Shown here piece after piece: positions 1,794 to 20,062 of a stretch of 32,000 nucleotides of DNA (the first letter of the stretch is position 1; every line of letters begins with the position of its first letter). The notes under the pieces are model-generated. The model had not been told where the DNA came from and did no database searches. It saw only the letters and a program-made list of their open reading frames with translations. Location: assembly GCA_042852035.1 (NCBI GenBank), contig BAAFHK010000001.1, forward strand, positions 540,001-572,000, given 5' to 3'. A program made the position numbers and the translations under genes. The stretch is from Candidatus Saccharimonadota bacterium (GTDB taxonomy: Bacteria; Patescibacteriota; Gracilibacteria; BD1-5; UBA2023).

Positions 1794-1843
1794 AGAAAAA
1801 AAGAAAATTAAGAGTTATTAGAAGCATCAAGAGAAAACAAAAA

Positions 1844-1880
1844 TCCCTAACCTTCTAATGCAAGGTTGGGGATTTATTTA
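1844..1880 (+). terminator. Rho-independent terminator after nrdA
   Basis: The stem is 11 bp, tccctaacctt (1844..1854) pairing with aaggttgggga (1862..1872), with one G-U pair and a 7-nt loop. It is followed by tttattta. Confidence 0.65.
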
Positions 1881-1890
1881 AAAAAAACTT

Positions 1891-3294
1891 ATGGCTTATA
1901 AAAATTCTACTCAAACAACATTAGACTATATTGAAAAAATTGAAAATCATCTGAAAAGTGAGTCATATAAAAGTCAAATTTGATGACAAGATATTATAAC
2001 TCAATCAAGCTCTTATAAATATAATAATGAGCAAACACTTGGAGAATCCATAGAAATTATGCGAATTGGTTTCCAAAAGATTAAAGATAATATCAGCTTA
2101 TATGATCAATGAAATATAGATTATAAGAATAATATTAATAATACTTGTATAAATAATATTTTAGCATGGTTAGAATCAAGCCCTATTTCAAATTGGCAAA
2201 ATATTATTCAAAATATTAATAATTTTATAATGTATCTGGGATATATTTGAATCTTTATTGCTTCAGAATGAGGAAAAAATAAAGACTATAAATTATTCAA
2301 TAGAAGACTATCTCAAGCAGAAGACTTTGTTTCTAAAGTTACACAAGCGGAAACATTATACAAAAAATTAAAACCAATAAGTGAAGCAATTCCATCACTA
2401 GAAAGTATTCAGAATGCAAAAACAAATAGTGATGAAATTATCAGGCTACATGAAAATATCAAGGAATTAGAACAGTCTGCAACAGAAAGTAAGAGAAATA
2501 TAGAGGAAAATGCTAAATACGCTTGAATAATGCTCTGAAAAATAACTACTGACGTAGTAGGAAAATATTTTCAAAAACTAGCAGATGAATATAAAAAGTC
2601 TGTAGAATGAGACTGGACAACTGAATTGCTAGACATAACAAATAAAGACGGAACTACTTCTCGTACTTGGAAATTATGGAAATGGAAATATTGATTTATG
2701 AAAGGTTTTTTTAATTGGAATACCTACTATTTTGTTGCGTTATCTTTAGTTGCATTCAGCCTATATTTCATATTATTCTATTCTCAATCGATTGACTGTA
2801 AAACAAATCCATTAAGCTGATCTGGTCTTATTTTACAAAATATAAATGATTGTAAGAAAAAAGTTGAAATAGGATTAGCAGTAAACAATTATGATAAAAC
2901 TTTTATAAAAGATGTGGGCGCCGAAAATATTAATTGATGAATGATAGCACTCGAAATTGTTAAAATTATAAGCAATTGAATAATTCGACTTGTTTTATTG
3001 ATGCCATCTTTACTTTTGCTATGGTTTGTAATGCAAAACAGGAATGATAAAAATCGATTAAGAAAAACATACGAGTTTAGAGAAACCACTATTAATACTC
3101 TTCCTGGCCAACTAGAACAATTAAGACAACAATGAATTCCTTCTGAAAAGATATGAGATTTTTTGGCAGGGACACTAACTCAAATATATTCTGAGCCTCT
3201 AGATGAAAAAAAAGAATCCTGAGAGGGTTTAATAACCAATTTAAAAGATACTGCTGATATTATGCAAAAATGGAAAGATATATTTAAATCATAG
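1891..3294 (+). CDS. Hypothetical membrane protein, 467 aa. It has a helical N-terminal region, then TM segments (YYFVALSLVAFSLYFILFY and IIRLVLLMPSLLLLWFVM) that flank a two-Cys loop, then a helical tail.
   Basis: I read every codon from ATG 1891 to TAG 3292..3294. The frame holds no TAA or TAG and 16 in-frame TGA. The length is exactly 1404 nt. I recognise no family. Confidence 0.7.
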
Positions 3295-3316
3295 TGCCGT
3301 ACTAATTAATAATTTA

Positions 3317-3345
3317 AATCCACCTCCTCGGTGGATTTTTCTTTG
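3317..3345 (+). terminator. Rho-independent terminator (copy 1 of a repeated terminator module)
   Basis: aatccacc (3317..3324) pairs with ggtggatt (3330..3337) around the loop tcctc, followed by a T-run. Confidence 0.75.
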
Positions 3346-3365
3346 TTTTATTCTATACTCTCTTC

Positions 3366-3752
3366 ATGAATTCATTTTTCGACGAAGCTCGCATACTCGA
3401 TCTCCCACTCGGTGAATATGTCATATTCGGGAGTGGCCCTATGGTCGTACGAGGTATCAGAGAGGGGAGAGATATCGATATTATCGTGACTCATTCACTT
3501 TTCGAGAAACTTCGCGATAAGTACTCTAAGCATATCCATGATGAGAAACTCGAACTCGGGAAAATCGAACTCTCAGCAAAGTGTCTTGATTATAGCGATG
3601 ATGAAATACTTACTCTTATTTCGACAGCAGAACTTATAGAGTGACTCCCATTCGCAACTCTCGATGAGGTTATAAAATTCAAAAAACGACTCAATCGAGA
3701 GAAGGATAGAGTTGATATCGAACTTATAGAAACCTATAGAAAAAGTATATAA
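3366..3752 (+). CDS. Minimal nucleotidyltransferase-fold protein (pol-beta / MNT-like), 128 aa
   Basis: The motif FGSGPMVVRGIREGRDIDIIV matches the hG[GS]x9-13DhD nucleotidyltransferase signature. The C-terminal KKRLNREKDRVDIELI resembles the R-x-KD-x-x-D tail of small NTases. There is one in-frame TGA (3642) and the stop is TAA 3750..3752. Confidence 0.65.
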
Positions 3753-3801
3753 TCTGATTTTTTTGGTGGATTTTTTATTCTCGAAAAGTGATAAATATAT
3801 T

Positions 3802-3830
3802 TTGACAATCATAAGAAAAATGTATGATTG
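3802..3830 (+). promoter_or_regulatory. Sigma70-like promoter
   Basis: TTGACA lies at 3802..3807. The -10 is ambiguous: TATGAT at 3823..3828 gives a spacer of only 15 nt. The element is upstream of ATG 3855. Confidence 0.45.
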
Positions 3831-3854
3831 ATTATTATTTAACATAATACCAAT

Positions 3855-4535
3855 ATGTCTCTTTCAAAGGTTTCTCAGGTAGGATTTTATCCTCACGACG
3901 AAGTAAAAACAACTATCAATCCAAATTTTATCATCAAGGCTCACCCTGATGTCACTCCCCATAGAAAAGCACATAGAATACCTGAGGATGTGCTCCATCA
4001 TCGTATAGCAAATGCAAGAAATGGAACCCTCTGGAGAGTTGAGATTCCCAGAAGAATCGGAAAAAGACTCCTCATTGTCGATAGTAATCCAATGGCAGGG
4101 TATGAATATGATTATAAAAGAAGGCTCCATGCTGCCTGATGAAGACTTGGAGCACCGACAGTGATTGGTGTCTCACTCGAGAGACTCTATGCACTCCTTG
4201 ATCCCTATTTTGAGTGATACCCGCTTCTCTGACATGCTGTGGAAAGTATTGAGTCAACACGACTCTCGATTCCATGACGCACTCATTGAATTCTCAATAT
4301 CTGACTCAAAGACTATGATCACTGGAACAGTGTTCTAGACACGACTCAAAAATGATGAATCGTAACCTATGATGCGCTTTTGCGATGACTGCGAGATAAA
4401 AAACCCATAAATAATCCACTTTATACACCTGGTGATGCAGAAAATCCTATTATTAAGGATAGGCGTACAAACTGAAAAACAGGTAAAGCAGCGAGAAGCT
4501 CTGACAGGCTCGATCCTAGTATGAGACGAATATAA
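3855..4535 (+). CDS. Hypothetical protein, 226 aa when TGA is read as Gly
   Basis: I read every codon. The first 94 codons contain no TGA. A tandem TGA-TGA follows at 4137..4142, and nine more TGA occur before the first true stop, TAA 4533..4535, which abuts a terminator. An alternative overlapping ORF exists at 4129..4338 (see findings). Confidence 0.55.
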
Positions 4536-4559
4536 ATCCACTTCCTCGGTGGATTTTTT
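4535..4559 (+). terminator. Rho-independent terminator (copy 2 of the repeated module)
   Basis: aatccac (4535..4541) pairs with gtggatt (4549..4555) around the loop tcctc, followed by tttttt. It is nearly identical to the element at 3317..3345. Confidence 0.75.
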
Positions 4560-4589
4560 CTGATTCAAAACTTCTAGAAAAGAATATTG

Positions 4590-4621
4590 TTGACATTTAT
4601 ATTTTTTAATTAAAATATAAT
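4590..4621 (+). promoter_or_regulatory. Sigma70-like promoter, probably giving a leaderless mRNA
   Basis: TTGACA lies at 4590..4595. The -10 candidates are TAAAAT (4611..4616) and TATAAT (4616..4621). The ATG is at 4623. Confidence 0.6.
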
Positions 4622-4622
4622 A

Positions 4623-5066
4623 ATGAATTCAAGAAATTCGCATTTCATCCGTGCTGTTATCACGGGGACCATCATATCCCTCTCATGAAGTAATGCGCTC
4701 GCCACATGAACCGTAGAAAGTGTAGAAAAACTCCTCACAGAGCCATCCTCTAAGCTCCGTTATAGCGGATGGTCTGCCACTGAAGAAGAACTCATATTCC
4801 TAAGATCATATGCTAAAAGACTCTCAGAATCGACTGATAACAAGATCGTCTCCATGCAATCTATGTGAGTCTATAATGGCGGGAAGTTTCTCGTTATTCG
4901 AGGCGAGGTCTATTATTTTAAAAGAGATACCTCTACTGGTTTTTCCCTCACTCACCTAAAATGACTCAAAGAAAAAACAGTCATCTGAGCAAGAGCATAT
5001 ATGGAGTGAAGAATAATAGAACCAAGAAGACCAGGAAAAGTTACTCTCCCAGATAGAGTTCTGTAG
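4623..5066 (+). CDS. Small secreted hypothetical protein, 147 aa
   Basis: The N-terminus MNSRNSHFIRAVITGTIISLSGSNALA looks like a signal peptide. I read every codon; the frame holds six in-frame TGA and ends at TAG 5064..5066. Confidence 0.6.
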
Positions 5067-5192
5067 TTAAAGGTATGTCTTTTATGCATTCCCCATAACT
5101 TAGCATTCGAAATATTTCGTATTTTTTTGAAAGGATTAGACCTACCCAAACAGCGCAAAGCTTCAGCAATGAGTGTATCCCATGTTTAATAT

Positions 5193-5221
5193 TTGACATT
5201 ATAATAATTTAATTATTATAT
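5193..5221 (+). promoter_or_regulatory. Sigma70-like promoter
   Basis: TTGACA at 5193..5198 is followed by a 17-nt spacer and TTATAT at 5216..5221. Confidence 0.55.
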
Positions 5222-5242
5222 AAAATATATAATTTTTTCTTT

Positions 5243-5911
5243 ATGTCATTAGCACCATCTATTCCAGATCATATGGACCACCTCATGAGAGAGAGTGATA
5301 TCCTCAGTCCTCTAAAAGATACGTTCTGATTTGAGATATGAGAGTTTGGGAAACCACGCATAATCCCATGAAAACAGTACCAAGCCCGCGTAGACATACC
5401 ATTAAGATACCGAGGTGAGACAGCCACACTTATTACTCTCGCTTTTAAACCTGGAGACGGAACTGGGGATATGAGTACCTACAGAGAGTGACAACTTGAT
5501 ATACCGCTAGGATTTCGATTTCTTGAGAACCCTTCGAGGGTATACCCAAGGGCAAAAAATCTCGCAGATGGAAGCCCTCTTCCTATAGAGTGAATGATAC
5601 CACTATTTGTAACCAAAGTATGAGAAACGTGGATGATACCACACAATTCAACCTTGCTTGAATTGTGAATCGTATGAGAAAATGCAATTTGAATCATCTG
5701 AAAGATGCAAACATACTCAAGACCGAGTATTTTACTCACAGTTACCGGAGAATGAGAGGAGAGATATGGAGATCCTCATGCTATATTTTCTCCTCGAGAG
5801 CCATGAGTTGAGGATGGATATCAGGTGGCATGATTTATATCAGCAAATTCAAGACAATCCAAGGTATATGAACTTCTAAAAAATCAATGAAAGCTCCCTC
5901 CAAGTTACTAG
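5243..5911 (+). CDS. Hypothetical protein, 222 aa. The 3' end is uncertain.
   Basis: The frame from ATG 5243 stays open to TAG 5909..5911 and contains 14 TGA. Across roughly 5660..5880 all three forward frames are open, so the true C-terminus cannot be fixed by eye. Confidence 0.45.
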
Positions 5912-5970
5912 AATAAATATGCTTTTCTGAAATTAGTATTTCTTATCTTATATACTTTAGTGTTGTTACT

Positions 5971-6315
5971 ATGCTGTATTCAAAAACTCGATATACGCCT
6001 GCGGGGGAAGGGAGCTCATGAAGACTTGATCGCCCTGCTTCACAGGTTCCCAAAGGTTCAAGGGAAAAATGATGGGAAACGATTGAGGTTGCTCAAGCAC
6101 GAGTAAGAGATCTTACAAAAGAAGTCGCCTACAGAATGCGCGTAGTAGAAGGTCATTTTGATATTACAGAAGCTCACATGACACACGTAAAACTAGAGAC
6201 AACGAGAGGTGCTATAGAAAGAGTACGGAGATTAATTGGCTGAAGCTTTGCGAATCAAGTTCAATTCGCTCAGGAGCTCGCTCGACTAGGAAAACTCGAA
6301 AAAAATCTACCATAA
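5971..6315 (+). CDS. Hypothetical protein, 114 aa, predicted helical
   Basis: I read every codon from ATG 5971 to TAA 6313..6315. The frame contains three TGA. A possible -10, TATACT, lies at 5951..5956. Confidence 0.55.
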
Positions 6316-6339
6316 TCGCCATGTTGATGGTTTTTATAG

Positions 6340-6364
6340 CCTATCGTATTCGATAGGTTTTTTT
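6340..6364 (+). terminator. Rho-independent terminator
   Basis: cctatcg (6340..6346) pairs with cgatagg (6351..6357) around a 4-nt loop, followed by seven T. Confidence 0.8.
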
Positions 6365-6412
6365 GGGTGTACTATATATTTCTTGTGAATCATCAGACAT
6401 GAAAGAATACAT

Positions 6413-6440
6413 TTGACATTTTTAATATTTAAAATATAAG
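6413..6440 (+). promoter_or_regulatory. Sigma70-like promoter, leaderless configuration
   Basis: TTGACA at 6413..6418 is followed by a 16-nt spacer and TATAAG at 6435..6440. The ATG at 6448 lies 8 nt after the -10. Confidence 0.65.
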
Positions 6441-6447
6441 TATATTT

Positions 6448-7260
6448 ATGCAACGACTTCTTCAAGTACCTTGAATAATACTTCGGGCCATACCTGGAAA
6501 TAGGCTCGGTATGCTCACTCTCAGAAATACGATCAATAAAGCCCTCGAAGGGATGACTCAACGCGATCTTCTCACCATCAAAAATGAAATCACTCTCCGA
6601 CTTGGTTGAGAAAGTGAATATTGGAAATATACACTCTGATCTGGGAAAGACCTTGATGAATCCATATACGATTCTCTCTTTAAAGAAATTATTGCTCCAA
6701 CACTTGGTATTTCTCAGCTTTCTCCCGTATATTATGGACAAAGGAAAGAAATTGTAAGGAATTTTATCTCTTGCCTTGAGGACAGGCTACGAAATTTAAA
6801 TGAGGAAACTCCAGAATTAGGATCCGTTTTAATAGACCGTGAAACCATTCTTCGAATAAGTAGACTGGAATGATTCTGAGTAGTCGTAGCACATCTGGAA
6901 GAGTCTAATAAACTTGCCCAAAATTGATTCAATCATGTGGCATATTCTGAAATGATGAAAGCGATAGAAAAAATATTAAAAAAAATGTGTCTTATCTATC
7001 ATCGTGATGCGTATACGAAAGAATATGGTGAAACACCTATAAATGCAAAAATGGAAGATATACTTAAATTTCTCAGAAAGCTCCGTTGGAATGATCGACA
7101 ATACATAAAGCCAATCGATGATTTAAATAAGTTTGCAAATGATGATAAGCATGCAATTACACAAAGATGAAACATAGGAACGATAGAACAATACGACTAT
7201 AATTGAGTTATTTGTTTTATTCTTGATTGGATAGATTGACTCAACAAATCAATACAATAG
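6448..7260 (+). CDS. Hypothetical protein, 270 aa. The C-terminal part may be DUF4145/HEPN-like.
   Basis: The frame joins track ORF 6937..7170 to upstream and downstream sequence through TGA codons, ending at TAG 7258..7260. The C-terminus ...KAIEKILKKMCL...ILKFLRKLRWNDRQYIKPIDDLNKFANDDKHAI resembles the ...IRxxGNxxAH ending of DUF4145-type helical domains. This is recall only and has not been verified. Confidence 0.55.
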
Positions 7261-7266
7261 GAAATA

Positions 7267-7294
7267 TTGACAATAATTTTTTATTAAATATTAT
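7267..7294 (+). promoter_or_regulatory. Sigma70-like promoter
   Basis: TTGACA at 7267..7272 is followed by a 16-nt spacer and TATTAT at 7289..7294. The predicted leader to ATG 7366 is about 64 nt. Confidence 0.6.
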
Positions 7295-7365
7295 TTATCC
7301 GTATCTGTAAGTCCGCCTACTGTTGTAGGTTGGGTGTTTGCAGTACAAAATCATGAGGAGAACCC

Positions 7366-7803
7366 ATGGGCATTGGACTCGCAATTGGCCTTGCTCTGGA
7401 TTTCGGTGGACTCATCGGTCAGGGTGATGGCATCGGCGGTGATGGCGATGGAGAAAGCAGCTCGGGCAGCGGTGGTGACGGGGGGAGTTTTCTCTCCGAT
7501 GCCGCATCAATGCTCGGGGGGAGTGTTGACGAACGTCGGATGATCCGCATCCCGCTTCGGAAAATCCCTTACGCACTGAGGATGCTTCCCCTTGTCATGC
7601 CATCCTTGGCTCTCGCAGCTGAGAAATCTGGAGCGAAGGGATGGGGTGATCGTTGGGCCATCTACGTTGGGCCTATCTTCACCTTCGCGCTGTTCTATGT
7701 GACGATTGGTGGCTGCTTCGGTGGCTTCAACTGCTTTGCATGGGGTGGCGGACTCAAGCTCGGGAACATCGGTCTTGGTGTCCTCTTCCCGATCGGGAAA
7801 TAG
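7366..7803 (+). CDS. Glycine-rich (34 of 145 residues) small membrane protein, glycine-zipper-like, in a GC-rich compositional island
   Basis: The ORF is intact under the standard code. GAGGAG (7354..7359) sits 6 nt upstream of the ATG. Codon first positions are strongly enriched in G. The sequence runs MGIGLAIGLALDFGGLIG...IGGCFGGFNCFAWGGGLKLGNIGLGVLFPIGK. All 34 Gly codons are GGN and none is TGA. Confidence 0.6.
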   Translation: MGIGLAIGLALDFGGLIGQGDGIGGDGDGESSSGSGGDGGSFLSDAASMLGGSVDERRMIRIPLRKIPYALRMLPLVMPSLALAAEKSGAKGWGDRWAIYVGPIFTFALFYVTIGGCFGGFNCFAWGGGLKLGNIGLGVLFPIGK

Positions 7804-7835
7804 TGGCAACACGTTTCCCGACAACCCCAAGGAAT

Positions 7836-7859
7836 GCCTGCACTCGCAGGCGCCTTTTT
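7836..7859 (+). terminator. Rho-independent terminator (GC-rich stem)
   Basis: gcctgc (7836..7841) pairs with gcaggc (7846..7851) around the loop actc, followed by gcc and ttttt. A second hairpin, cgggaaa/tttcccg, lies at 7794..7820. Confidence 0.7.
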
Positions 7860-7862
7860 ATA

Positions 7863-7891
7863 TTGACTCAATAAGAAAATTGTGTTATAAA
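7863..7891 (+). promoter_or_regulatory. Sigma70-like promoter with an extended -10
   Basis: TTGACT at 7863..7868 is followed by a 17-nt spacer that ends in TGT, then TATAAA at 7886..7891. Confidence 0.65.
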
Positions 7892-7919
7892 TTAGTATAT
7901 TGTTACTTTCGTCACTTTT

Positions 7920-8831
7920 ATGAAGGCTTGAGCTCCAGAAGAACATAATGATACACCAGAAACGCTTCCTCACGACCTTCTGAGGAGTATAGAAATATGG
8001 CAAAAAACAACCCTTAGCGATATGGGATGATTCTCACTTAATGAACTTCTTTGACTCAGAAAATGACTCAGAGGACTTGGAGATGATTTGCATCCGATTG
8101 CAGCCAATTTATGAATCAGTGAGAGTGATATATCATTAATCATTAGTCAGGCTATTGTAAAGCGATCACTCCTCGAAGCGCGAGCATGAGTTCTAAACGC
8201 GCTTGATAATCGCATACAGCTTTTATGAAATAGAGCTGGTACCCCTCCACTGAGTCAGATGGCAGATAGGCATGAAGATCCTTTATATATTCCTCCGAAT
8301 TACCCAAACTGGTCAGAGAGAAAGTGGCGTAGTGTTGCCCACTTGCATAGAAAAGCAATGCGAGAAATAGCTTACAATGAACGACTCCTTGCATGGAAAC
8401 AAGAAAGAAGGGAGGAAGAGGAAAAAATAGAAAAAGAATGACAACTTTCTCGACTGATCAGCGTCTTGGAACAAAGAAGGGATATACTGAGAGAAGAAAA
8501 TCAAAGAAGAAGCGAAGAGATTGCATATAACTTATCAAAAACAATCCGCAACGAAGCCATGGAAAACATAGCTATTCTGGGATTCTATTCCTATGCAGGA
8601 GCATTTCTCGACTGCGAACTTTATTTTGCTCTTGATTATAATCTCTATAGAAGATCAAAAGAGCCTTGAAAAAAAAATAGAAAATTCTATGACCAGGTGA
8701 TTGATATACTTCAAAAAGAATTATGAAAGAGAGGCCTTTCATATGACAAAAGGGAAGTTATACGCCAATGACATGTCACCATGACCGAATGAGAGCGTGA
8801 AACTTTTATTAATCAAGTCATCTCAGATTAG
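7920..8831 (+). CDS. Hypothetical protein, 303 aa, with a charged coiled-coil-like centre (...WKQERREEEEKIEKE...)
   Basis: I read every codon. The frame joins track ORFs 8259..8441 and 8466..8669 through TGA. The first ATG after the upstream in-frame TAG (7893) is at 7920, and the stop is TAG 8829..8831. Confidence 0.55.
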
Positions 8832-8842
8832 AGAATAAATAT

Positions 8843-8871
8843 TTGACATACATATTTTATATATTTATAAT
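8843..8871 (+). promoter_or_regulatory. Consensus sigma70 promoter
   Basis: TTGACA at 8843..8848 is followed by an exact 17-nt spacer and TATAAT at 8866..8871. Confidence 0.75.
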
Positions 8872-8879
8872 TATAAAAT

Positions 8880-8906
8880 ATGAGGCGTGTTCGTCGAAAC
8901 AAATAG
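8880..8906 (+). CDS. Eight-codon Arg-rich mini-ORF (MRRVRRNK), a possible leaderless upstream ORF
   Basis: Its ATG lies 9 nt after the -10, at the expected transcription start. It ends at TAG 8904..8906, 44 nt before the next gene. Confidence 0.25.
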   Translation: MRRVRRNK

Positions 8907-8949
8907 ACTCAAGCACAGCGAATTCAATACTACATAATTTTTTATTACT

Positions 8950-9459
8950 ATGAGTGGCGATAAGTTTCTAGCATGAAATAGAGCAGATATTCTTCGAGAA
9001 AATCTAAAATGAAAAAGCTCTGAAGAAAAAGGGAAATACCTTAAAGAATTTCTCTGTGTCGCTTCTTTTAATATTGAAAATCATGCTTTTGGCTACTGGC
9101 TACTAACTCGAAACGATGGGAAGACGGCAATATTTTCTCATGAAAAAAACCAGCTCATAGAAATTCCTCATGAAAAATGAGAAGACCCTAATTTTTGAGA
9201 TATCAGCATCTTACTCTCATTAAGTCCCCGCTGAAGCAATACAAGAGTTATGATTGCTGCAATCGGTTGAATCAGACAAGAATGAGATGATCCAATACGT
9301 GATATTTCATCCCTCGGAGTCATTCATGATACAAAATTCGAAAAAATTGAATGAATTCCATCATGAGTATCCATCATGACGGGACTTAGGATATATATAT
9401 CAAAGCTTCGAGCACTTCATGCAGCAACATGAATACAAGGAGAACAAAAAATTCACTAA
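8950..9459 (+). CDS. Hypothetical protein, 169 aa
   Basis: I read every codon from ATG 8950 to TAA 9457..9459. The frame contains 10 in-frame TGA. Confidence 0.55.
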
Positions 9460-9465
9460 TTTATT

Positions 9466-10389
9466 ATGAACAAACCCATTATTGTTGATCTATCGCGATG
9501 ATTCAGGGCCCACATTACTGGTCAGGATACATCATGTATGGCACTCAGCAGAGCAATTCAATCACTTGGCACAGATGTACTTCGGTCCTTCGATCCCTGG
9601 AATATAGATATGAGGAACCCGCGCCCGATCCTCCAAGATGCTGAAGTTAATGTAAAAACCTGAATCGCAAAGGCTGATGCCCCTCTCTTTTTTAATGCCA
9701 GATGGGCGAGAAGTATCGCTCATGGATCAGATATGATATTTCCTGTGGCACGATTAGCTCAAAGACTTCTCACCCCTGGTGATAGCATAACTGCTGTTTC
9801 ATGATGATTTGAAAAACAAGCCACACATGATATACATATCGTCATATATGATCCAACACTCACTCAGTGAGCAGATCAAAAATGAGAACAATATGGATCA
9901 GGAGAATTCAAAACGCTTCAAGGAAGGACCCTAAGGTATCAAATATTGGCTCAAAAATATAATACAATCCAAGGAAAAAGAGAAAGAAATCCTCTAGCAG
10001 AAGCAGTAATTCGAGAAAATAAAGTAACTCATGAATGACCAAACTTTTCGGTTCCATACGACCCTAAAATGCTTCAAATAATAGGCAGAGACTTCCAGGA
10101 AAATCCAGAATTTCAAACTTCAAGTATGCTTGAAGTCGCTACTTTTATTGGAAGGGAAGTATTTCGAAGACTAAAAGAAGAAGAGAAGATAAAGTACGAA
10201 ATGCTGTTTGTAAGAAGTGTGGAAAATCTCCCAGTTTCCCTAGATGGATTTCAATCCACTGAAGAAGAAACTCTTCCTGCGAGAATCATACGAAGAAAAA
10301 ATATTAACAGTTGGAATTATCTTTTTATCGAAATAATTTTTCCATTCGCACGATGAGAAAAAACAAAACTCTGCCTCGCCTACAAATAA
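9466..10389 (+). CDS. Hypothetical protein, 307 aa
   Basis: I read every codon from ATG 9466, which lies 6 nt after the upstream stop. The frame includes track ORF 10069..10356 and ends at TAA 10387..10389. GQDTSCMALS followed by THDIHIVIYD could be a Cys-His-Asp arrangement, but this is unverified. Confidence 0.55.
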
Positions 10390-10490
10390 AATATATTTTA
10401 TAAATCCCGTCTTTACTATTATTAGAATACATTAAGAATGACCGTAAATAGGATTTGAACTTTTCATTTTCTCTAGAGGAATGAACGTAT

Positions 10491-10513
10491 ATTATGAATA
10501 TATTATTCATAAT
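10491..10513. promoter_or_regulatory. Perfect 10-bp inverted repeat just upstream of the large surface-protein gene
   Basis: attatgaata (10491..10500) and tattcataat (10504..10513) are separated by 3 nt. The repeat ends 8 nt before ATG 10522. Confidence 0.35.
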
Positions 10514-10521
10514 ACTTCACT

Positions 10522-13500
10522 ATGTGATACCTCCTCTCATGACTCAGGATTCTTGGGATTGGTTGAGTACTTTTGAGCTCTATATTTAGCGCTTGAGAAC
10601 TTCGAGCAGCATCTGCTATATCAAATACCGTAACCTCATATGAATATGCTGAGCTTAATAATTGTATTATTCCTATTTGAGAATCCAGCTGTACTGCAAC
10701 CCTTGTCGTATATGGACCTACTGGGATGACTTATACAGTAAAAAATCTCACAAGAGCAATAACATCAAGTAATATTATTACTCCAAATAACTATATCCTC
10801 TACTACGATACAAGATATGCTTACGTACTCAAGGATACCATTTTGGGTGATGCCGCTAATCGACTCACGTACTGAGATAATGATCTTACCATAACTCCTC
10901 CAGGAACAAATATCGCAAGCCTAAAAGCTGTAGGGAATGCATCTTGTGCAAGCTGAAGTGCTTGGAATTGAAAAATTTGTAGCCTTCCAAATCCTCCTGA
11001 ACAATCTGATGGAACCACTACCAGTATTGTCACGATAAAATCAGGAAATTGAGATACTTCGTATTCTTTTGATCTTCCAAAAAATATTTCAAAGAATTAT
11101 TACATGCCAGATCAGGTTGAGAAAAAAATAAGTATTCCTAGCACTACTTCAGTACTCAATATTACTCTCTCAAGCACGAAAGACAGATGTAGCATTTCGC
11201 CAAACTATTCTACAGATAGTGGTCTTATCTTTTCAAGCAATGCAAAAGACTTCATGAAATCGGGGCTCCAAAGCGCAACCACTACAATTCCCGTATTTGC
11301 CACTTATTCAAGCATTGCAAGCTCAAGTATATCATATGGAAAGCTTTCAAGTATTTCTATCAGTTGTGATAATTATACAGAACTCGTGAAAGATCTTATA
11401 ATTTTTAAGTTATCTTCTCTTTCTTCAGTTCCTCCAGTCACAGATAGAACCATGAAAGCATCAAATTGCAGTATATCAATATGAAAAGGAACCTGTACAT
11501 CTACAGTAAGTATCAAGTCAAATCCTAGCTTTTACTACAGCCTGGAAAATAGCACTCGATGACTAACAATGACAAATGCATTCTATCCAGGAAGTTCTCT
11601 CACCCTATCAAGCTCACCCCTTGGAGAGGAAGCGGCAAACTCTCTTACAAATGGAATAAATTCTCTGCGCCTCAAAGAAGGAGATAAAATCGTAACGAGC
11701 ACCCAAGCAACAGCAAGTTGTGTATCTTGAAGTACCTGGAACGGGCAACTCTGTAAAGAAAATGCTCCTATAACCCCTCTTGCAATCACTTGTTCAAAAA
11801 CTACTTATGAAGCATGAGATAGTATTTCGTGTAAGATATCTGGTGGATCTGGGGTAAGAATGTGTTGGCAAACTGGAACAAGTACCACTTCCCCTGTCGA
11901 ATGTACGAGTGTTGGATGGGTAATAGATGGAAGCAATCTTTATTATTCCAAAAACCTATCAACCGGAACAATCGGAAATTATACACTCTTCGTAAAGGAT
12001 GCTCTTGGAAAAAGTGCATCAACAACCGTCTCATATAAGGCTCGATACCAGGAACTTATTACCGATAACTGTACCATACCTACAGGAAAGAATAGCTGTA
12101 CTTCAACAGTTTACCTGGTTAACCCAATATCAGGAAAATCCTATGATCTAAGAAATACTACTCGCAATATTACAACCAAAAATTTCTTTACTCCAAACAG
12201 TATAGGAACACTTCCTGGAAGTAATTATCCTGTATATAAAGTAAGCACGGCTCTTTCAAATGAGAGTGCAAATATTGGAACTTACGGAACAAATAATGTT
12301 ATTGTTGTAGATAACACCATCTCAACTCTATCAGCTAAATTCATTGCGTCTTGCGAGAAATGATCTTCCTGGAATGGACAAATCTGTATGGCAACCACAA
12401 AACCTCCTGTGTCCTGCACTTTACAAGTGCGACTTTGTGAAGATGGTATCCCAATGCCAAGAAATCCAGATACATGTGAATGGCTTCCATGACAATGCGC
12501 CCCAATTCCTACAACAACAGACTCCCCACTTACGGGTTACAGTATAAACGACACAACATATCCATTCACAGGGTCAATTATCACACTCAAAGATACTGTA
12601 GTGTTCTCACTCAAATGAAAAAGTCGTCCTGGTAGCATTCTTTATTTTTACCGAACATGAGAGAAGACATATGAGACCGCTGTAGCTGATCGTACAAGTG
12701 GTGAATGGAGCTTCGCAAAAATATGGTCACCTACTGGATCTAAGGTGATTATCCCAGGAGAAAATACTTACAAACTTTCCACAGTTCCTCCAGGCACTCA
12801 AAGCTCTACTACAAATACTCAAGGAAATTCTCTCATTGCAACACAAGAATATACGCTTCGTATCAATCTCATCTCCACAAGTTCTTCAAATAATTCCGTA
12901 GTCATCGAGGCAAAAAATTGTATTATTCCTATTGGAAAAAGTACATGTGCATCTACAGTAAATGTTACCTCAAAAAAATATATCTGAACTACGGGGGGAA
13001 GGAGTTTTGATTATAGAAATTTCACTCGAAACCTCACAACATCAAATCTTTTTACGCCAAATAACGCTACCACAGTGAATGGTGGTTACCCTGTATACAC
13101 GGTAACATCAAATGCTACTGGCGATGCGGCAAACTATGCAACCATTGGCGACAATGACTTTGGGCTTATCGAATGAGGAGAGGTAATTGCAAAAGTAACC
13201 ATGACTGCAACTTGTGCCAATAAATCAAGTTGGAACGGGCAATTCTGTAAAGAAAATGCTCCTACCAATCCGATTCTGACTGGGGGAATCTTACCAAACC
13301 CCACAAATCCTTATGCAAAAATGACCGGGTGTACCATATCAGAATGATCCAGTACATGTCCTTCAACACTTATGGTATTTGCTCTAAGTGGAAAGACATT
13401 CACGGTTAAAAATGTCACAAGAAATATCGAATCAGCAAATAGTATAACCCCAGAGGATTTTCATATCGTCTGAGGAAAAGGGGTATATATATCTAAGTGA

Positions 13501-14085
13501 ACCATAAACAGTCCTGAGACTCAACAACTCACAAACGGAGTTAATTTTCTCATTATAAAAGAGAATGGACTTGTTCCTCTTACATTACAAGCAAGAGCAA
13601 TAGCTCGATGTGCCCCATGAACTACATGGAACGAGACAAAATGTATTAAAAAAAATATTCCAAATTTCTCCACAATTACGATTGAAACTGCTCAAGGTGT
13701 AAAGTCATTCGTAAATTCGAAGAGTATTTCCTTTGATCCAGCCATTGATAGCTATCTTACTCTTCGATGAGAATGACCACTTGGAAACATACAAGTATAT
13801 GAATGAAACCCTTCAAATATTATAGCCAGCAGCACTTCTCTAGATGCCCAGGGGAAATGGAAAATCACCCTCTCTCTCTGAACATCTCAAAATCCAGGAA
13901 ATCATACCTACACCATCTGGGACTGAACCAATACAAATACCGCCACTAAAATAAATGTTGACATAAAGACCTCCTCTATAAATACACCGAATAATTCTTC
14001 TAGCAATTCATGAAATACTTCATCATGAACCAGCACGAGTATATCGTCTCCACTCATAGTGGAAATGATTACTCTCTGAAACTAG
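10522..14085 (+). CDS. Large secreted/surface protein, 1187 aa, Ser/Thr/Asn-rich, with five four-cysteine modules
   Basis: I read every codon. The frame joins track ORFs 11104..11484, 11860..12363 and 12745..12987 through many TGA and ends at TAG 14083..14085. The N-terminus MGYLLSGLRILGIGGVLLSSIFSAG is hydrophobic and signal-like. Confidence 0.75.
10663..13644 (+). repeat. Five divergent modules of about 96-110 aa inside the 10522..14085 CDS
   Basis: Each module opens with C-x-I-[PS]-x-G-x3-C-x-[SA]-T and closes with C-x3-S-x-W-N-G-x2-C. The modules lie at 10663..10980, 11467..11754, 12070..12387, 12919..13248 and 13330..13644. A 34-nt stretch, tggaacgggcaaNtctgtaaagaaaatgctccta, recurs at 11737..11770 and 13231..13264 with a single mismatch. 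Confidence 0.7.
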
Positions 14086-14144
14086 TAGAAATCAATTATT
14101 TTGTATTTTTTTACGAATCCATATACTCACTCTAGATATTATCG

Positions 14145-14615
14145 ATGCTTCAAATCGTACACAAAAAACTTCTCGTCGTCTGAATTATCTTTCTTTTAAG
14201 CTGGATTTTTTGAAGTTTTCTTATTCATAAATTCGAAGCCTGATATCCAATAGGAGAAAATTATTTTAATGCCTTCTACTTTACTGTTATAACAACCGCA
14301 ACCATCTGATTCTGAGATCTCGTTCCGATGACTGTAGCAGGGAAGTGGCTCACCATGGGATATGCCATATTCTATGTTCCTCTCTTTCTCTATGTAATGA
14401 CCCTCCTTTTTCAGTCAAATCTCCATAAACTCAGACAATCTGATGAAATTCTTCATAAAGAGATAACCGATGTGGAATCAGATGTTAATATTATTCTTGA
14501 TGGCATGAAGCAAGCTATAGAAGATACTTGATGAGTCGAGCCATGAAACACCGGAGAGCCAAAACACCATCATAAGAAACCACGAAAAAGAAAACTTATT
14601 GCAAAAAGTGAGTAG
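14145..14615 (+). CDS. Minimal two-TM potassium channel (KcsA-like pore), 156 aa with a basic C-terminal tail
   Basis: The selectivity filter TTATIGFGD lies at 14292..14318, and both filter glycines are encoded by TGA (14307, 14313). TM helices flank the filter. The frame includes track ORF 14328..14531 and ends at TAG 14613..14615. Confidence 0.8.
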
Positions 14616-14738
14616 ATCTAGAAGGCTATCCCTTAATTTATAACTCTCCATCCTTTGTATTCTCCACGGGAAATTTATCACTTCCTTACATCTGAAGGCC
14701 TTAAGTCAGTCCTTGGAAAGTCATTTTACAAAAGACAC

Positions 14739-14939
14739 ATGGAGGATGATAATCGAGAAAGCCCCTTCGATACTCCTGATGAGATATTCTTACTTGAATT
14801 TCTTATTGCATGAGGCTACCTTATTGCTGAGTATCGCAGTGATCATGCAAATGATTCAGAAAGTTACCTCATATCCACTATGGGACATGCTTTCGTAAAA
14901 AACTATAAACAGTCTTTATTATTTCGACTCAGAGCCTAG
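14739..14939 (+). CDS. Possible small ORF, 66 aa
   Basis: The frame is open from 14637. It starts at ATG 14739 and ends at TAG 14937..14939. I recognise no motif. Confidence 0.25.
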
Positions 14940-14954
14940 GCACACTATTCTCGA

Positions 14955-15026
14955 ATGATCTATTGGATCATCTTTGCTTCTACACTTGGATCACTGATTG
15001 CTAATTTTATCTGGTACTATATGTAG
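14955..15026 (+). CDS. Possible 23-aa hydrophobic peptide (MIYWIIFASTLGSLIANFIWYYM)
   Basis: It shares a frame with the preceding ORF, separated from it by one TAG. Its stop lies 18 nt before a 10-bp hairpin. Confidence 0.2.
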   Translation: MIYWIIFASTLGSLIANFIWYYM

Positions 15027-15043
15027 TTTTTTATATGTAAAAA

Positions 15044-15079
15044 ATGAGGAAAACTACAAAATTACTTGATTTTCCTCAT
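15044..15079 (+). terminator. Hairpin, a likely terminator or insulator ahead of nrdB
   Basis: atgaggaaaa (15044..15053) pairs perfectly with ttttcctcat (15070..15079) around a 16-nt loop, followed by AT-rich sequence. Confidence 0.4.
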
Positions 15080-15085
15080 ATTTAT

Positions 15086-15134
15086 ATACTATATCTTGTA
15101 CCTCATATACTAACTCATACACTATATGTCGACA
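15086..15134 (+). promoter_or_regulatory. Two candidate NrdR-box-like half-palindromes
   Basis: atactatatcttgtac (15086..15101) matches the remembered consensus acaCwAtATaTwGtgt at 12 of 16 positions. acactatatgtcgaca (15119..15134) matches perfectly in the left half and weakly in the right, and it overlaps the nrdB ATG. The two starts are 33 nt apart. Confidence 0.3.
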
Positions 15135-16181: not shown

Positions 16182-16184
16182 ACG

Positions 16185-17198: not shown

Positions 17199-17673
17199 TT
17201 CGTGGATCCGTTCTTCTTAATGCAAGGCTGCAAGCAACAATAGTTCAAGACATAATTGATGATGATATATTTTTTATTCCTCAAACTTTTGGACTTGAGT
17301 GAAAGTAATTTCACTCAGAATCCATAAATATACCAACATGAGAAATCATTTGAGCTTTATGTGCTAGGGATTTTCTATGAAAAAAAACTAGGTCCCCCAT
17401 CTCATGCTCATCGAGAGGAATGAGTCGAGCTCATGCAACTCAGCCATAAATCATGCTATGAATAAAATCACCGATATATGCATATGGAATAAAAAAACCG
17501 GTACTTTTCTCTATCATATATCTAACAGCCGTAATACAATGTGTCACTCATGGTGCATCTTCATAAGTGGCATCAAGTGCGTAATGAGTTCCACATAAAT
17601 CAGAATGTGCTTGATTGAATTTTTCAGCATTAAAACGAAGATCTTCAAATCGAAGTGCAATAAATTGTGACAT
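17167..17673 (-). CDS. NlpC/P60 (C40) family peptidase-like protein, 168 aa
   Basis: I translated the reverse complement by hand. SDLCGTH, GDLVFF, SHVGIF and YFHSS match the usual NlpC/P60 Cys ... GDLxFF ... HVGIY ... xH pattern. The stop (TAG on the minus strand) lies at 17167..17169, inside the end of the ATP-grasp gene. Confidence 0.6.

Positions 17674-18061: not shown

Positions 18062-20062
<2,001 letters not shown>

What the first reader, a model, noticed from the sequence alone, without database searches (positions are those of the whole stretch)
1794..15125. The nrdA and nrdB genes are split by a 13.3-kb same-strand island of ORFan genes
Class I RNR alpha and beta genes are normally adjacent and co-transcribed. 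Here nrdA ends with its own terminator (1844..1880), and nrdB has its own upstream hairpin and AT-rich control region (15044..15134).

The interval holds 13 or more plus-strand genes. I can assign a family to only a few of them: a minimal NTase, a K+ channel and a Cys-module surface protein. This looks like an accessory or hypervariable insertion into a core operon. I see no integrase, tRNA or flanking direct repeats that would explain how it arrived.
Basis: partly seen in the sequence, partly recalled or inferred. Interest (0 to 1): 0.65.

Follow-up and report, generated by a model that had tools for sequence, protein, structure and literature searches.

The report
Gene-turnover hotspot splitting nrdA and nrdB
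In this Gracilibacteria genome, which reads TGA as glycine, the two genes for ribonucleotide reductase are separated by 13.3 kb of mostly lineage-specific genes; the split is old, each gene appears to have its own copy of the same repressor-binding site, and the space between them is a long-lived hotspot of gene gain and loss rather than a recent mobile-element insertion.

Summary
nrdA (3-1793) and nrdB (15126-16181) lie on the same strand 13,332 bp apart, with 14 plus-strand genes (A-N) between them. TGA codes for glycine (code 25).

The interpretation needs revising. This is not a recent insertion into an operon. The window belongs to a Gracilibacteria clade (about 33 species-level genomes) with no adjacent nrdAB: gaps are 2.8-8.8 kb or more than 10 kb. 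The channel gene M (often with N) is anchored beside nrdB. All 31 nrdB promoters examined carry tandem NrdR-type boxes 33 bp apart, and nrdA has the same design in six of eleven relatives examined.

Content between nrdA and M turns over fast: 160 ORFs from 24 intervals form 104 families, 84 seen in one genome only. A closer relative (L165) shares G, I, J, K, L, M and N in order, differing by single-gene indels. A-E have no detectable relative anywhere.

I found no integrase, tRNA, phage, plasmid or defence signature. The island genes use host codon usage and are rich in TGA-Gly codons, so they come from the code-25 gene pool. NrdA, NrdB and LepA histories disagree, which fits recombination at the flanks.

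Verdict: a real hotspot without mobile elements, a new member of a known kind, of moderate interest.

The parts
3..1793 (+). nrdA (class I RNR large subunit; 5' end cut by the window). Left anchor of the hotspot.
   Evidence: Pfam Ribonuc_red_lgC E=5.9e-144. 88-90% identical to 'type I' NrdA of L001, L005, L006, L011 and L018, but only 69-74% to type II genomes and L009.
1841..1875 (+). Hairpin after nrdA, a likely terminator with a weak U-tract. The variable region begins just after it.
   Evidence: -20 kcal/mol, z=-6.0. Shared with L011 only; in the other type I relatives similarity stops at the nrdA stop codon.
1891..3294 (+). Gene A: 467-aa membrane protein with 2-3 hydrophobic segments. 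27% GC, 16 of 29 Gly encoded by TGA. No relative found.
   Evidence: No hit in Pfam, PADLOC, PHROGs, NCBIfam, viral contigs, phages or plasmids.
3316..3338 (+). Intrinsic terminator after A. A near-identical copy follows C, and one copy lies in the L001 gap.
   Evidence: z=-4.7.
3366..3752 (+). Gene B: 128 aa with a GSG...DxD motif that looks like a nucleotidyltransferase by eye. Membership unconfirmed.
   Evidence: Only phrog_12854 (unknown function), E=8e-12. No Pfam, NCBIfam or PDB hit.
3855..4535 (+). Gene C: 226-aa ORFan, 11 of 19 Gly encoded by TGA.
   Evidence: no family.
4534..4556 (+). Intrinsic terminator after C (93% identical to the one after A).
4623..5066 (+). Gene D: 147-aa ORFan.
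   Evidence: no family.
5243..5911 (+). Gene E: 222-aa ORFan, 14 of 24 Gly encoded by TGA.
   Evidence: no family; no viral relative.
5971..6315 (+). Gene F: 114 aa. Relatives in the nrdA-nrdB intervals of L009 and L010.
6338..6359 (+). Intrinsic terminator after F.
   Evidence: z=-5.4.
6448..7260 (+). Gene G: 270 aa. Shared with L165 (89%) and L002 (63%).
7261..7828 (+). Gene H indel unit: TTGACA-16-TATTAT promoter at 7267-7294, about 70-nt leader, AGGAG Shine-Dalgarno, ORF at 7366-7803. It lies between G's stop codon and G's terminator and is absent from L165.
   Evidence: 57.5% GC, 0 of 34 Gly encoded by TGA. Junctions flanked by an AGGAA(A)T microhomology. Protein-coding: substitutions at codon positions 1/2/3 = 360/187/793. 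Tiny family.
7835..7852 (+). Intrinsic terminator. It serves G in L165 and H in the window.
7920..8831 (+). Gene I: 303 aa. Shared with L165 (78%), L012 (48%) and L111 (38%).
8950..9459 (+). Gene J: 169 aa, behind a perfect TTGACA-17-TATAAT promoter at 8843-8871. Shared with L165 (80%) and L002 (27%).
9466..10389 (+). Gene K: 307 aa, 6 nt after J. Shared only with L165 (79%).
   Evidence: no viral relative.
10522..14085 (+). Gene L: 1,187-aa protein with an N-terminal signal-like segment and 30 Cys, probably on the cell surface. It is the fastest-diverging shared gene.
   Evidence: Only two relatives among 5.8 billion proteins. 72% identity in L165 and 39% in L166.
14145..14615 (+). Gene M: small two-TM K+-channel-type protein. 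Conserved resident next to nrdB.
   Evidence: Ion_trans_2 E=2.6e-16. Present upstream of nrdB in 38 related loci.
14739..14939 (+). Gene N: 66 aa. Conserved resident between M and nrdB.
   Evidence: Found in 20 related loci, up to 89% identical.
15014..15029 (+). NrdR-type box (6 of 6 conserved positions), upstream copy seen only in the window.
   Evidence: box definition from PMC13584703.
15034..15088 (+). Hairpin enclosing the -35 element of the nrdB promoter.
   Evidence: -15.5 kcal/mol, z=-6.3.
15086..15101 (+). NrdR-type box 1 of the conserved pair. It overlaps the -10 element of the nrdB promoter.
   Evidence: A 6/6 box in all 31 clade members, at -40 from the ATG in 24 of them.
15119..15134 (+). 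NrdR-type box 2 of the conserved pair. It overlaps the nrdB start codon; its start is 33 bp from that of box 1 (17-bp spacer).
   Evidence: 33-bp spacing in 30 of the 33 box pairs found 25-45 bp apart. Spacers of 14-17 bp are functional (PMC12051234).
15126..16181 (+). nrdB (class I RNR small subunit). Right anchor, with its own promoter.
   Evidence: Ribonuc_red_sm E=1e-73; conserved promoter.

Best explanation
The nrdA-nrdB interval in this Gracilibacteria clade is a long-lived gene-turnover hotspot (a flexible genomic island) with no mobile-element machinery. It sits between two RNR genes that were uncoupled long ago.

Step 1 (shown). In the window's clade nrdB is not co-transcribed with nrdA. 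It has its own conserved sigma-70-type promoter (TTGCAT, 17 nt, GATACTAT). Two NrdR-type boxes overlap the -10 element and the start codon. nrdA in six of eleven relatives examined carries a box pair with the same 33-bp spacing.

Step 2 (inferred). One NrdR-type repressor therefore coordinates both subunits in trans. That removes the need for adjacency, so insertions between the genes are tolerated.

Step 3 (shown). The interval has two parts. M and N form a conserved stub next to nrdB. The stretch from nrdA to M is variable and differs almost completely between species-level genomes. Between closer relatives it changes by single-gene indels and by fast sequence divergence.

Step 4 (shown). 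Most island genes are self-contained units with their own promoter-like sites, and several have their own terminators. Gain or loss of one gene should not disturb its neighbours.

Step 5 (shown for composition, inferred for route). The genes are written in the code-25 dialect, with 30-63% of Gly as TGA in most of them and host-like codon usage. They therefore come from the code-25 gene pool, not from ordinary bacteria or standard-code phages.

Step 6 (inferred). New material most likely enters by homologous recombination in the conserved flanks, and it leaves by microhomology-mediated deletion.
For: - Gap survey: nrdA lies upstream of nrdB on the same strand in 50 of 80 species-level loci, with gaps from 23 bp to 8.8 kb. 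A further 28 measurable loci come from metagenomes.
- Polarity: on an NrdB tree the window's clade has no adjacent pair and almost always has M next to nrdB. The window's 13,332-bp gap is the largest measured.
- Turnover: 104 families among 160 ORFs from 24 intervals, 84 of them in one genome. In contrast, every gene downstream of nrdB that I tested (g18, g20, lepA, g22-g30) has at least one relative in the same loci.
- Regulation: a 6/6 NrdR-type box in 31 of 31 clade nrdB promoters against 7 of 48 loci outside the clade. There is a second box 33 bp away. The same tandem design lies upstream of nrdA in L001, L007, L018, L021, L031 and L034. The site definition and the functional spacer range come from PMC13584703 and PMC12051234.
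- Inheritance plus indels: L165 shares G, I, J, K, L, M and N in order. It lacks the H unit and has an extra small channel gene.
- Native origin: TGA-Gly use and the codon model.
- Independent units: terminators after A, C, F and H, plus promoter-like sites in the spacers.
- No mobile-element or defence signal in the window or in other gaps.
- Discordant flanks: NrdA types are 67-74% identical between groups whose NrdB is 77-88% identical. LepA does not follow the NrdA types. L018 and L025 share 93% LepA but only 77% NrdB and 70% NrdA.
- Deletion by microhomology: seen at the H junction and in near-identical, apparently oral strains of another clade.
- General model: hotspots without mobile elements that diversify by recombination in flanking core genes (PMC5635113).
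Against: - The recombination route is inferred from identity matrices only. I ran no formal incongruence or recombination test.
- The left half (A-E) could not be compared with the closest relative, because the L165 contig starts inside G. It could be old and vertically inherited, or it could be a single recent block.
- All comparison genomes are at species level or more distant (nrdA/nrdB DNA identity about 70-80%). Some 'absences' may be divergence beyond detection.
- The nrdR gene is not in the window or in any clade locus within +/-10 kb, so the presence of the repressor is assumed.
- The nrdA-to-A junction is supported only by this one assembly.
- Promoter-like sites in the island are not enriched over shuffled sequence as a whole. 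The promoter calls rest on their position in the spacers.
Confidence: 0.7

Rival explanations
1. Pure vertical descent. The interval was filled once in an ancestor. Today's differences come only from very fast divergence of lineage-specific genes plus deletions, with no continuing gene import.
For: L165 keeps G and I-N in the same order. I-L are already down to 72-80% identity where nrdB is 96% (over its first 51 residues) and G, M and N are 89-90%. H is best explained as a deletion in L165. Deletions by microhomology are seen directly. The island genes use native codon usage and are TGA-rich.
Against: 81% of families occur in a single genome. Yet the fastest-evolving downstream core gene (g28, 30-44% identity) is still detected in 8 loci. 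Composition within the island is very uneven: A is 27% GC and H is 57.5%. H relatives sit in unrelated genomic contexts. Other gaps hold unrelated, recognisable genes such as PHO4, Fic, CAP, an acyltransferase and YecM. These cannot be diverged copies of the window's genes.
Confidence: 0.17
2. A single recent insertion of a mobile element (genomic island, prophage remnant or integrative element) into an nrdAB operon.
For: Same-strand packing of 14 genes of mostly unknown function. Atypical composition of A and H. Near-identical hairpins after A and C could be scars.
Against: No integrase, transposase, tRNA or flanking repeats. No PHROG structural hits. No similarity in the viral contig scans (A, E, I, K), in phage records (left half and B) or in plasmid records (left half). 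The split, the M-N stub and the independent nrdB promoter are shared by the whole clade. The right half is syntenic with L165.
Confidence: 0.05
3. An anti-phage defence island or toxin-antitoxin cluster that happens to lie between nrdA and nrdB.
For: Defence genes commonly collect in hotspots. B has a nucleotidyltransferase-like motif. A Fic protein occurs in another genome's gap. There are weak sub-threshold PADLOC hits: G to PbeC at E=5e-4, and B to a Cas13 C-terminal model at E=7e-3.
Against: No PADLOC family at a convincing score for any of the ten proteins scanned. No Pfam defence domains. No recognisable multi-gene system.
Confidence: 0.05
4. Assembly artefact: the contig is chimeric at the nrdA-A boundary.
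For: The left junction (about 1885-1890) has no independent support, and gene A has unusual composition (27% GC).
Against: The window comes from a 750-kb contig. An independent run gives a 100% identical 2.5-kb contig for the downstream part. L165 independently confirms the order from G to nrdB. Thirteen clade relatives show nrdA 2.8-8.8 kb upstream of nrdB on the same strand. A uses TGA-Gly heavily and scores as coding with host codon usage.
Confidence: 0.03

Closest known systems
HGT hotspots between core genes that lack mobile genetic elements (Oliveira, Touchon and Rocha 2017, PMC5635113)
   Same: A fixed interval between the same two core genes holds different accessory genes in different genomes. 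Turnover is high, most families are rare, and no integrase or transposase is present. The flanking core genes show discordant histories, as expected from recombination.
   Different: Here the two flanking core genes are the two subunits of one enzyme, which are usually one operon. The comparison is across species-level genomes of an uncultured, TGA-recoded CPR lineage and not across strains of one species. Flank recombination is only suggested, not formally tested.
Hypervariable regions of streamlined marine bacteria, such as SAR11 HVR2 between rRNA genes and the Prochlorococcus genomic islands (recalled from memory, not checked here)
   Same: A hypervariable stretch sits inside an otherwise conserved and normally contiguous gene set of a small genome. 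It includes membrane or surface proteins.
   Different: Most genes in this island are predicted to be soluble and of unknown function. I found no glycosyltransferase or envelope-synthesis genes. No population-level recruitment data were available.
Phage 'morons': self-contained promoter-gene-terminator units (recalled from memory)
   Same: Gene H is a discrete unit with its own promoter. It is inserted between a neighbour's stop codon and terminator, has atypical composition, and is present or absent between relatives.
   Different: The unit is in a chromosome, not a prophage. It uses the neighbour's terminator. No phage genes are nearby.
Integron cassette arrays and CALINs (attC clusters without an integrase)
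   Same: A run of short, same-strand genes of unknown function separated by spacers of 60-180 nt that contain hairpins.
   Different: The spacers share no attC-like consensus, and only two hairpins are alike. The spacers hold terminators and promoter-like sites, whereas cassettes have no promoter. No IntI is present.
NrdR regulon: paired 16-bp NrdR boxes upstream of RNR operons (PMC13584703, PMC12051234)
   Same: Two partly palindromic 16-bp boxes match all six highly conserved positions. The 17-bp spacer lies within the functional 14-17 bp range, and the boxes overlap the promoter of an RNR gene.
   Different: Separate box pairs serve nrdA and nrdB individually. The spacer is fixed at 17 bp rather than the usual 15-16 bp. 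Box 2 overlaps the start codon. The NrdR gene and actual binding were not observed.

Membership tests
Canonical class I nrdAB operon | nrdA and nrdB adjacent and co-transcribed from one promoter | tested here: not met
   The gap is 13,332 bp with at least 5 hairpin terminators in between. nrdB has its own conserved promoter. Co-transcription itself was not measured.
Canonical class I nrdAB operon | Genes encode the class I RNR large and small subunits | tested here: met
   Pfam Ribonuc_red_lgC/lgN and Ribonuc_red_sm with very strong E-values.
Classical mobile genomic island, prophage or ICE | Integrase or recombinase gene | tested here: not met
   No such Pfam, NCBIfam or PHROG hit in A-N, nor among the 19 sampled ORFs from other gaps.
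Classical mobile genomic island, prophage or ICE | Insertion next to a tRNA or tmRNA gene, with flanking direct repeats (att sites) | tested here: not met
   No tRNA or tmRNA in the window. No direct repeats bracket the interval.
Classical mobile genomic island, prophage or ICE | Similarity to known phage or plasmid sequences | tested here: not met
   Viral contig scans for A, K, E and I; phage and plasmid blastn of the left half; tblastn of B against phages. All negative.
MGE-free HGT hotspot (sensu PMC5635113) | The same pair of flanking core genes encloses many different accessory families across genomes | tested here: met
   24 intervals, 104 families, 84 of them in one genome; gene maps.
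MGE-free HGT hotspot (sensu PMC5635113) | Raised recombination or phylogenetic incongruence in the flanking core genes | tested here: inconclusive
   Identity matrices for NrdA, NrdB and LepA disagree strongly, for example L018-L025. No ClonalFrameML or SH test and no core-genome tree were possible.
MGE-free HGT hotspot (sensu PMC5635113) | Turnover among strains of one species | not testable with these tools
   No same-species genome with a different island was found; the closest relatives are L165 and L001. Strain-level presence or absence next to nrdB was seen only in another clade, apparently human-oral.
Integron / CALIN | attC recombination sites between cassettes, and cassettes without promoters | tested here: not met
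   The spacers have no shared structured consensus. They carry terminators and promoter-like hexamers.
NrdR operator | Two 16-bp boxes with C4, A6, A8, T9, T11 and G13 | tested here: met
   Window boxes at 15086-15101 and 15119-15134 both match 6 of 6 positions. A 6/6 box is conserved in 31 of 31 clade loci. Definition.
NrdR operator | Spacer of 14-17 bp (or 24-27 bp) between the boxes | tested here: met
   17 bp in 30 of the 33 box pairs found 25-45 bp apart. Functional range.
NrdR operator | An NrdR protein is encoded in the genome and binds the site | not testable with these tools
   No nrdR in the 32-kb window or within +/-10 kb in clade loci. nrdR is present in a sister clade. Binding needs an experiment.
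Anti-phage defence island | Proteins matching known defence-system models | tested here: not met
   PADLOC gave only two weak sub-threshold hits.
   No Pfam, NCBIfam or PDB match. Only a GSG...DxD motif by eye and a PHROG of unknown function. Structure prediction was not possible because the tool refuses code-25 translations.

The most novel reading that the evidence does not exclude
The nrdA-nrdB interval may be a dedicated 'landing pad' for accessory genes in code-25 symbiotic bacteria. On this reading, duplicated NrdR operators freed the RNR operon to be split. The lineage then uses the space to cycle rapidly diversifying genes for interaction with hosts or phages, such as the fast-evolving Cys-rich surface protein L. 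The interval also holds gene H, a small Gly-rich gene kept free of TGA, GC-rich and led by a Shine-Dalgarno sequence in every genome that has it. H could be built for unusually high or code-independent expression, for example a secreted or membrane-active peptide, or a product that must also be readable by a standard-code cell.
Probability: 0.1. Interest if true: 0.7.

Novelty: new member of a known kind. Interest (0 to 1): 0.4.

Why it matters
- It shows that even very small, TGA-recoded CPR genomes keep a defined place where gene content turns over quickly without any recognisable mobile-element machinery.
- It points to a simple way an essential two-subunit enzyme can tolerate being split: each gene carries its own copy of the same repressor site.
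- It gives a conserved pair of anchors (nrdA and nrdB) for pulling out the accessory gene pool of Gracilibacteria from metagenomes.
- It shows that TGA-Gly density can be used to tell native accessory genes from imports.
- It flags a set of lineage-specific proteins (L, A, H, C, E, K) as candidates for host or phage interaction in organisms that cannot yet be grown alone.

Tried and rejected
- Table-11 ORF tools are misleading here, so all gene calls were redone with TGA read as Gly.
- Non-coding RNA in the 'all frames open' GC-rich stretch (7290-7870): no Rfam match. The substitution pattern shows a protein gene.
- Integron-like array: rejected, no attC-like consensus.
- Defence island: PADLOC negative.
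- Prophage or plasmid origin: PHROGs, viral contigs, phage and plasmid records all negative.
- Foreign origin of nrdA and nrdB from their near-absence of TGA: rejected. Orthologues across the lineage avoid TGA (medians 3% and 6% of Gly), as do other conserved genes.
- Foreign (standard-code) origin of H: rejected. All H-bearing loci are TGA-recoded.
- One database search with ten proteins concatenated returned nothing. I consider it uninformative, because the 8,000-candidate word filter was probably saturated. Single-protein searches with H and L did work.
- Exact look-up of H found no record.
- AlphaFold model of H: pLDDT 45, so unusable, and no fold search was run.
- PDB sequence searches for B, G and K: nothing significant.
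- The metagenome scan gave no relative closer than 87% NrdB identity.
- The 406-nt spacer after g18: z=-2.2 and no credible Rfam match.
- Literature: the published Gracilibacteria 'hypervariation' is a different thing, a PTD-repeat gene. I found no paper describing an nrdA-nrdB hotspot.

Full report
**What is there.** The window uses a recoded genetic code. Reading TGA as sense raises the total of ORFs of 100 aa or more from about 4,900 to about 22,800 aa. In LepA the TGA positions fall on glycines that I recall as invariant in the E. coli protein. That makes it code 25, and related loci are labelled Gracilibacteria. Under this code the window holds nrdA at 3-1793 (5' end cut off) and nrdB at 15126-16181. 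Both are confirmed by Pfam at E=5.9e-144 and E=1e-73. Both are on the plus strand, 13,332 bp apart. Between them lie 14 plus-strand ORFs, which I call A to N. Each scores best in its called frame under a codon model trained on the window's own core genes. H is ambiguous because of its composition, and the competing minus-strand ORFs score negative. The window has no tRNA or tmRNA and no Rfam family. No direct repeats bracket the interval.

**What the island genes are.** Only M has a family: Ion_trans_2, a small two-TM K+-channel type. A to L have no Pfam or NCBIfam family. No PADLOC defence model scores convincingly. The only PHROG match is B, to a family of unknown function. PDB sequence searches for B, G and K found nothing. 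L (1,187 aa) has an N-terminal signal-like segment and 30 cysteines. H has one hydrophobic segment. The rest look soluble. Most spacers hold a hairpin with a U-run after the upstream gene, then TTGACA/TATAAT-like hexamers before the next gene. Terminators follow A, C, F and H. In contrast, the 16-32 kb part of the window has only one plus-strand candidate, and it lies inside the minus-strand gene g22. The genes therefore look like independent units and not one operon or promoterless cassettes.

**The genes are native to the code-25 gene pool.** Typical genes here encode 30-63% of their glycines with TGA, and so do A, C-G and I-N. Their codon usage matches the host. They cannot be recent imports from standard-code bacteria or standard-code phages. 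nrdA (1 of 32 Gly) and nrdB (1 of 17) almost avoid TGA. That is true of their orthologues across the lineage (medians 3% and 6%) and of other conserved genes, so it says nothing about foreign origin.

**Comparative picture.** A scan of species-representative genomes gave 80 Gracilibacteria loci with NrdB 70-91% identical to the window's. A metagenome scan added 80 more. In 50 of the first 80, nrdA lies upstream on the same strand. The gap ranges from 23 bp to 8.8 kb: 17 loci have under 400 bp and 33 have 0.8-8.8 kb. Four further loci have no nrdA within 10 kb. The metagenome loci show the same spread. On an NrdB tree three states separate cleanly:
- One clade keeps nrdA and nrdB adjacent (23-166 bp).
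- One clade has nrdD, a radical-SAM activase (nrdG-like) and nrdR between them, confirmed by Pfam. It includes the complete genome CP042461.
- The window's clade, about 33 species-level genomes, has no adjacent pair at all. Almost every member has the channel gene M, often with N, directly upstream of nrdB.

The split is therefore ancestral to the window's clade. The window's gap is the largest measured; the median of 13 bounded gaps is 3.8 kb.

**How the split is tolerated.** DNA similarity to relatives resumes 40-80 nt before the nrdB start codon, or further upstream, across N, in a few loci. The clade shares a promoter of the form TCTTGCATTTT, spacer, GATACTATATCTTGTAT. The published NrdR site is two partly palindromic 16-bp boxes with C4, A6, A8, T9, T11 and G13 highly conserved (PMC13584703). 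All 31 clade promoters carry a box matching all six positions, and in 24 of them it sits exactly at -40, overlapping the -10 element. Only 7 of 48 loci outside the clade have any match, at scattered positions. A second box overlaps the start codon. The start-to-start distance is 33 bp in 30 of the 33 box pairs found within 25-45 bp. That is a 17-bp spacer, which lies inside the experimentally functional 14-17 bp range (PMC12051234). Of the eleven relatives in which I examined the region upstream of nrdA, six carry a box pair with the same 33-bp spacing, five of them members of the window's clade. I infer that one NrdR-type repressor coordinates two separate transcription units, so adjacency is no longer needed. 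The nrdR gene itself is not in the window or in the flanks I could see. This step is therefore inferred, not shown.

**Turnover.** I extracted code-25 ORFs from 48 gaps and clustered them. The 333 ORFs fell into 199 clusters with 157 singletons. Within the window's clade, 160 plus-strand ORFs from 24 intervals form 104 families. Of these, 84 occur in one genome only, and only M is widespread (maps). A, B, C, D and E have no relative in any of about 160 loci. F, G, H, I and J have one or two each. In contrast, every gene downstream of nrdB that I tested (g18, g20, lepA, g22-g30) has at least one relative in the same loci. That includes the fast-evolving g28 at 30-44% identity. The interval is therefore a true outlier and not just diverged. 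Recognisable genes in other gaps are ordinary accessory functions: YecM, an NlpC/P60-like protein (by eye only), an acyltransferase, a PHO4 transporter, Fic and a CAP-domain protein. None is an integrase or transposase.

**A closer relative shows the mode of change.** L has only two relatives among 5.8 billion proteins. One lies on L165, an 8.2-kb contig. L165 carries G (89%), I (78%), J (80%), K (79%), L (72%), M (90%), N (89%) and the start of nrdB (96% over 51 residues), in the same order. The right half of the island is therefore inherited. There are two clean differences:
- The window's 7241-7828, which holds the H promoter, leader, Shine-Dalgarno and ORF, is replaced by about 13 nt in L165. 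In L165, G's stop codon runs straight into the hairpin terminator that serves H in the window. The junctions share an AGGAA(A)T microhomology. The more distant L002 also has G next to H, so loss in the L165 lineage is the simplest reading.
- L165 has a second small channel gene between N and nrdB that the window lacks.

In another clade, apparently human-oral judging by the GN02-873 record title, loci mostly 95-99% identical in their flanks differ by presence, truncation or absence of a 663-aa ORF next to nrdB. Those junctions also sit at short microhomologies. Loss by illegitimate recombination is thus directly seen. The route of gain is not.

**Route of gain.** Many HGT hotspots lack mobile elements and appear to diversify by homologous recombination in the flanking core genes (PMC5635113). 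That model predicts discordant histories for the flanks, and the data fit it. NrdA in the clade falls into deep types that are only 67-74% identical to each other. NrdB across the same genomes stays at 77-88%. LepA, just downstream, does not follow the NrdA types. L018 and L025 are the closest pair by LepA (93%) but among the most distant by NrdB (77%) and NrdA (70%). This is suggestive only, because I could not run a formal test. Composition inside the island is also uneven, from 27% GC in A to 57.5% in H. That fits piecemeal assembly.

**Rivals.**
- A single mobile-element insertion is largely excluded by the evidence above, and by negative searches of viral contigs (A, E, I, K), phage records (left half and B) and plasmid records (left half).
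- A defence island has no support beyond two weak sub-threshold hits.
- Pure vertical descent with fast divergence explains the right half. It does not explain the unrelated, recognisable genes in other gaps or the scattered contexts of H.
- Misassembly is unlikely. The source contig is 750 kb, and independent assemblies confirm the downstream part and the G-to-nrdB order. The nrdA-A junction itself still has no independent support.

**Caveats.**
- All comparison genomes are at least species-level distant.
- The left half (A-E) could not be compared with the closest relative.
- One database search with concatenated proteins returned nothing and should be ignored.
- Several tools refuse code-25 translations, so structure-based annotation was not possible.
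- My ORF calls in other loci are simple longest-ORF calls, and some minus-strand ones are probably spurious.

**Verdict.** The 'insertion into an operon' part does not. This is an old, clade-wide split with separately promoted RNR genes that apparently share NrdR-type control. The space between them is a mobile-element-free hotspot of gene turnover, filled from the code-25 gene pool. That is a new example of a known kind of genome feature, in an unusual place and lineage. I found no earlier description of it.

Noticed in passing
window 7261-7852 (ORF 7366-7803); relatives at L002:4968-5399, L010:3251-3691, L162:10001-10441, L163:1584-2231, L164:2035-2475: Gene H is a 145-aa Gly-rich protein with invariant VDERR, PSLALAA and C-GGF-C motifs. 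Every copy examined is GC-richer than its genome (45-58% against 36-42%) and has an AGGAG-type Shine-Dalgarno. The three copies counted (window, L002, L010) have no TGA-Gly. All host genomes are TGA-recoded. The family is tiny: 8 proteins, or 10 representative clusters among 1.84 billion. It sits in unrelated contexts, and in two of them it is next to a radical-SAM gene. It is protein-coding by its substitution pattern. The AlphaFold model was unusable. Why the gene avoids the host's own Gly codon is unexplained.
   Followed up: partly
window 15086-15134; nrdB upstream regions of L001-L066: The second NrdR-type box overlaps the nrdB start codon (CAC[T/C]ATATGTCG), so the operator constrains codon 2 (TCG). 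The 17-bp spacer is essentially fixed across the clade, where bacteria usually have 15-16 bp. The window also has a third 6/6 box at 15014-15029, at the edge of an indel relative to L165.
   Followed up: partly
L056, L061, L064, L065, L067, L070, L071, L074 (CP042461), L076, L077, L080: In another Gracilibacteria clade the interval holds nrdD, a small ORF, a radical-SAM activase (nrdG-like) and nrdR. This gives an nrdA-nrdD-nrdG-nrdR-nrdB supercluster that combines aerobic and anaerobic RNRs with their repressor.
   Followed up: partly
L022, L090-L099, L157 (apparently human-oral Gracilibacteria of the GN02-873 type): nrdA is inverted relative to nrdB. Among loci mostly 95-99% identical, a 663-aa ORF directly upstream of nrdB is intact, truncated to 305 aa, or deleted. 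The junctions lie at short microhomologies such as CAGAAAAATA.
   Followed up: yes
nrdA, nrdB and lepA of L001-L066 against the window: NrdA occurs as deep allele types (67-74% identity between types, 80-98% within). These types do not track NrdB or LepA. L018 and L025 share 93% LepA but 77% NrdB and 70% NrdA. This suggests exchange of nrd genes between species-level lineages.
   Followed up: partly
window 16182-18103 (g18 ATP-grasp at 16185-17198; 406-nt spacer at 17199-17604; g20 at 17605-18111): The nrdB-lepA interval is a second, smaller variable spot, 0.3-3.8 kb across relatives. The ATP-grasp gene g18 is present in only four related loci. The long spacer folds only slightly better than shuffles (z=-2.2) and has no credible Rfam match.
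   Followed up: partly
window 3311-3340 and 4529-4558; half-copy at 3765-3776; L001:7471-7489: Near-identical terminator hairpins (ATCCAC[C/T]TCCTCGGTGGAT followed by a T-run) follow genes A and C. The only other copy in 166 loci lies in the nrdA-nrdB gap of the closest species-level relative. It may be a remnant of shared ancestry or a recombination scar.
   Followed up: partly
whole window, gene starts: Most genes have no Shine-Dalgarno sequence. Instead they have a TATAAT or TATACT-like box a few to about 25 nt upstream of the ATG, which suggests very short leaders or leaderless mRNAs. H is the clear exception in the island.
   Followed up: no
window 27184-31998 (minus strand, runs off the window end): A giant ORF of more than 1,604 aa with 52 TGA-Gly codons. 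Only one related locus (L006) has a relative. blastp finds no similarity to L.
   Followed up: no
L081 (Logan DRR350542) against window 21796-24284: A contig 100% identical over 2.5 kb from an independent sequencing run, so the same strain was sampled elsewhere. Its gene calls are fragmented as if made with code 11. This is a reminder that protein databases under-represent TGA-rich genes of these organisms.
   Followed up: partly
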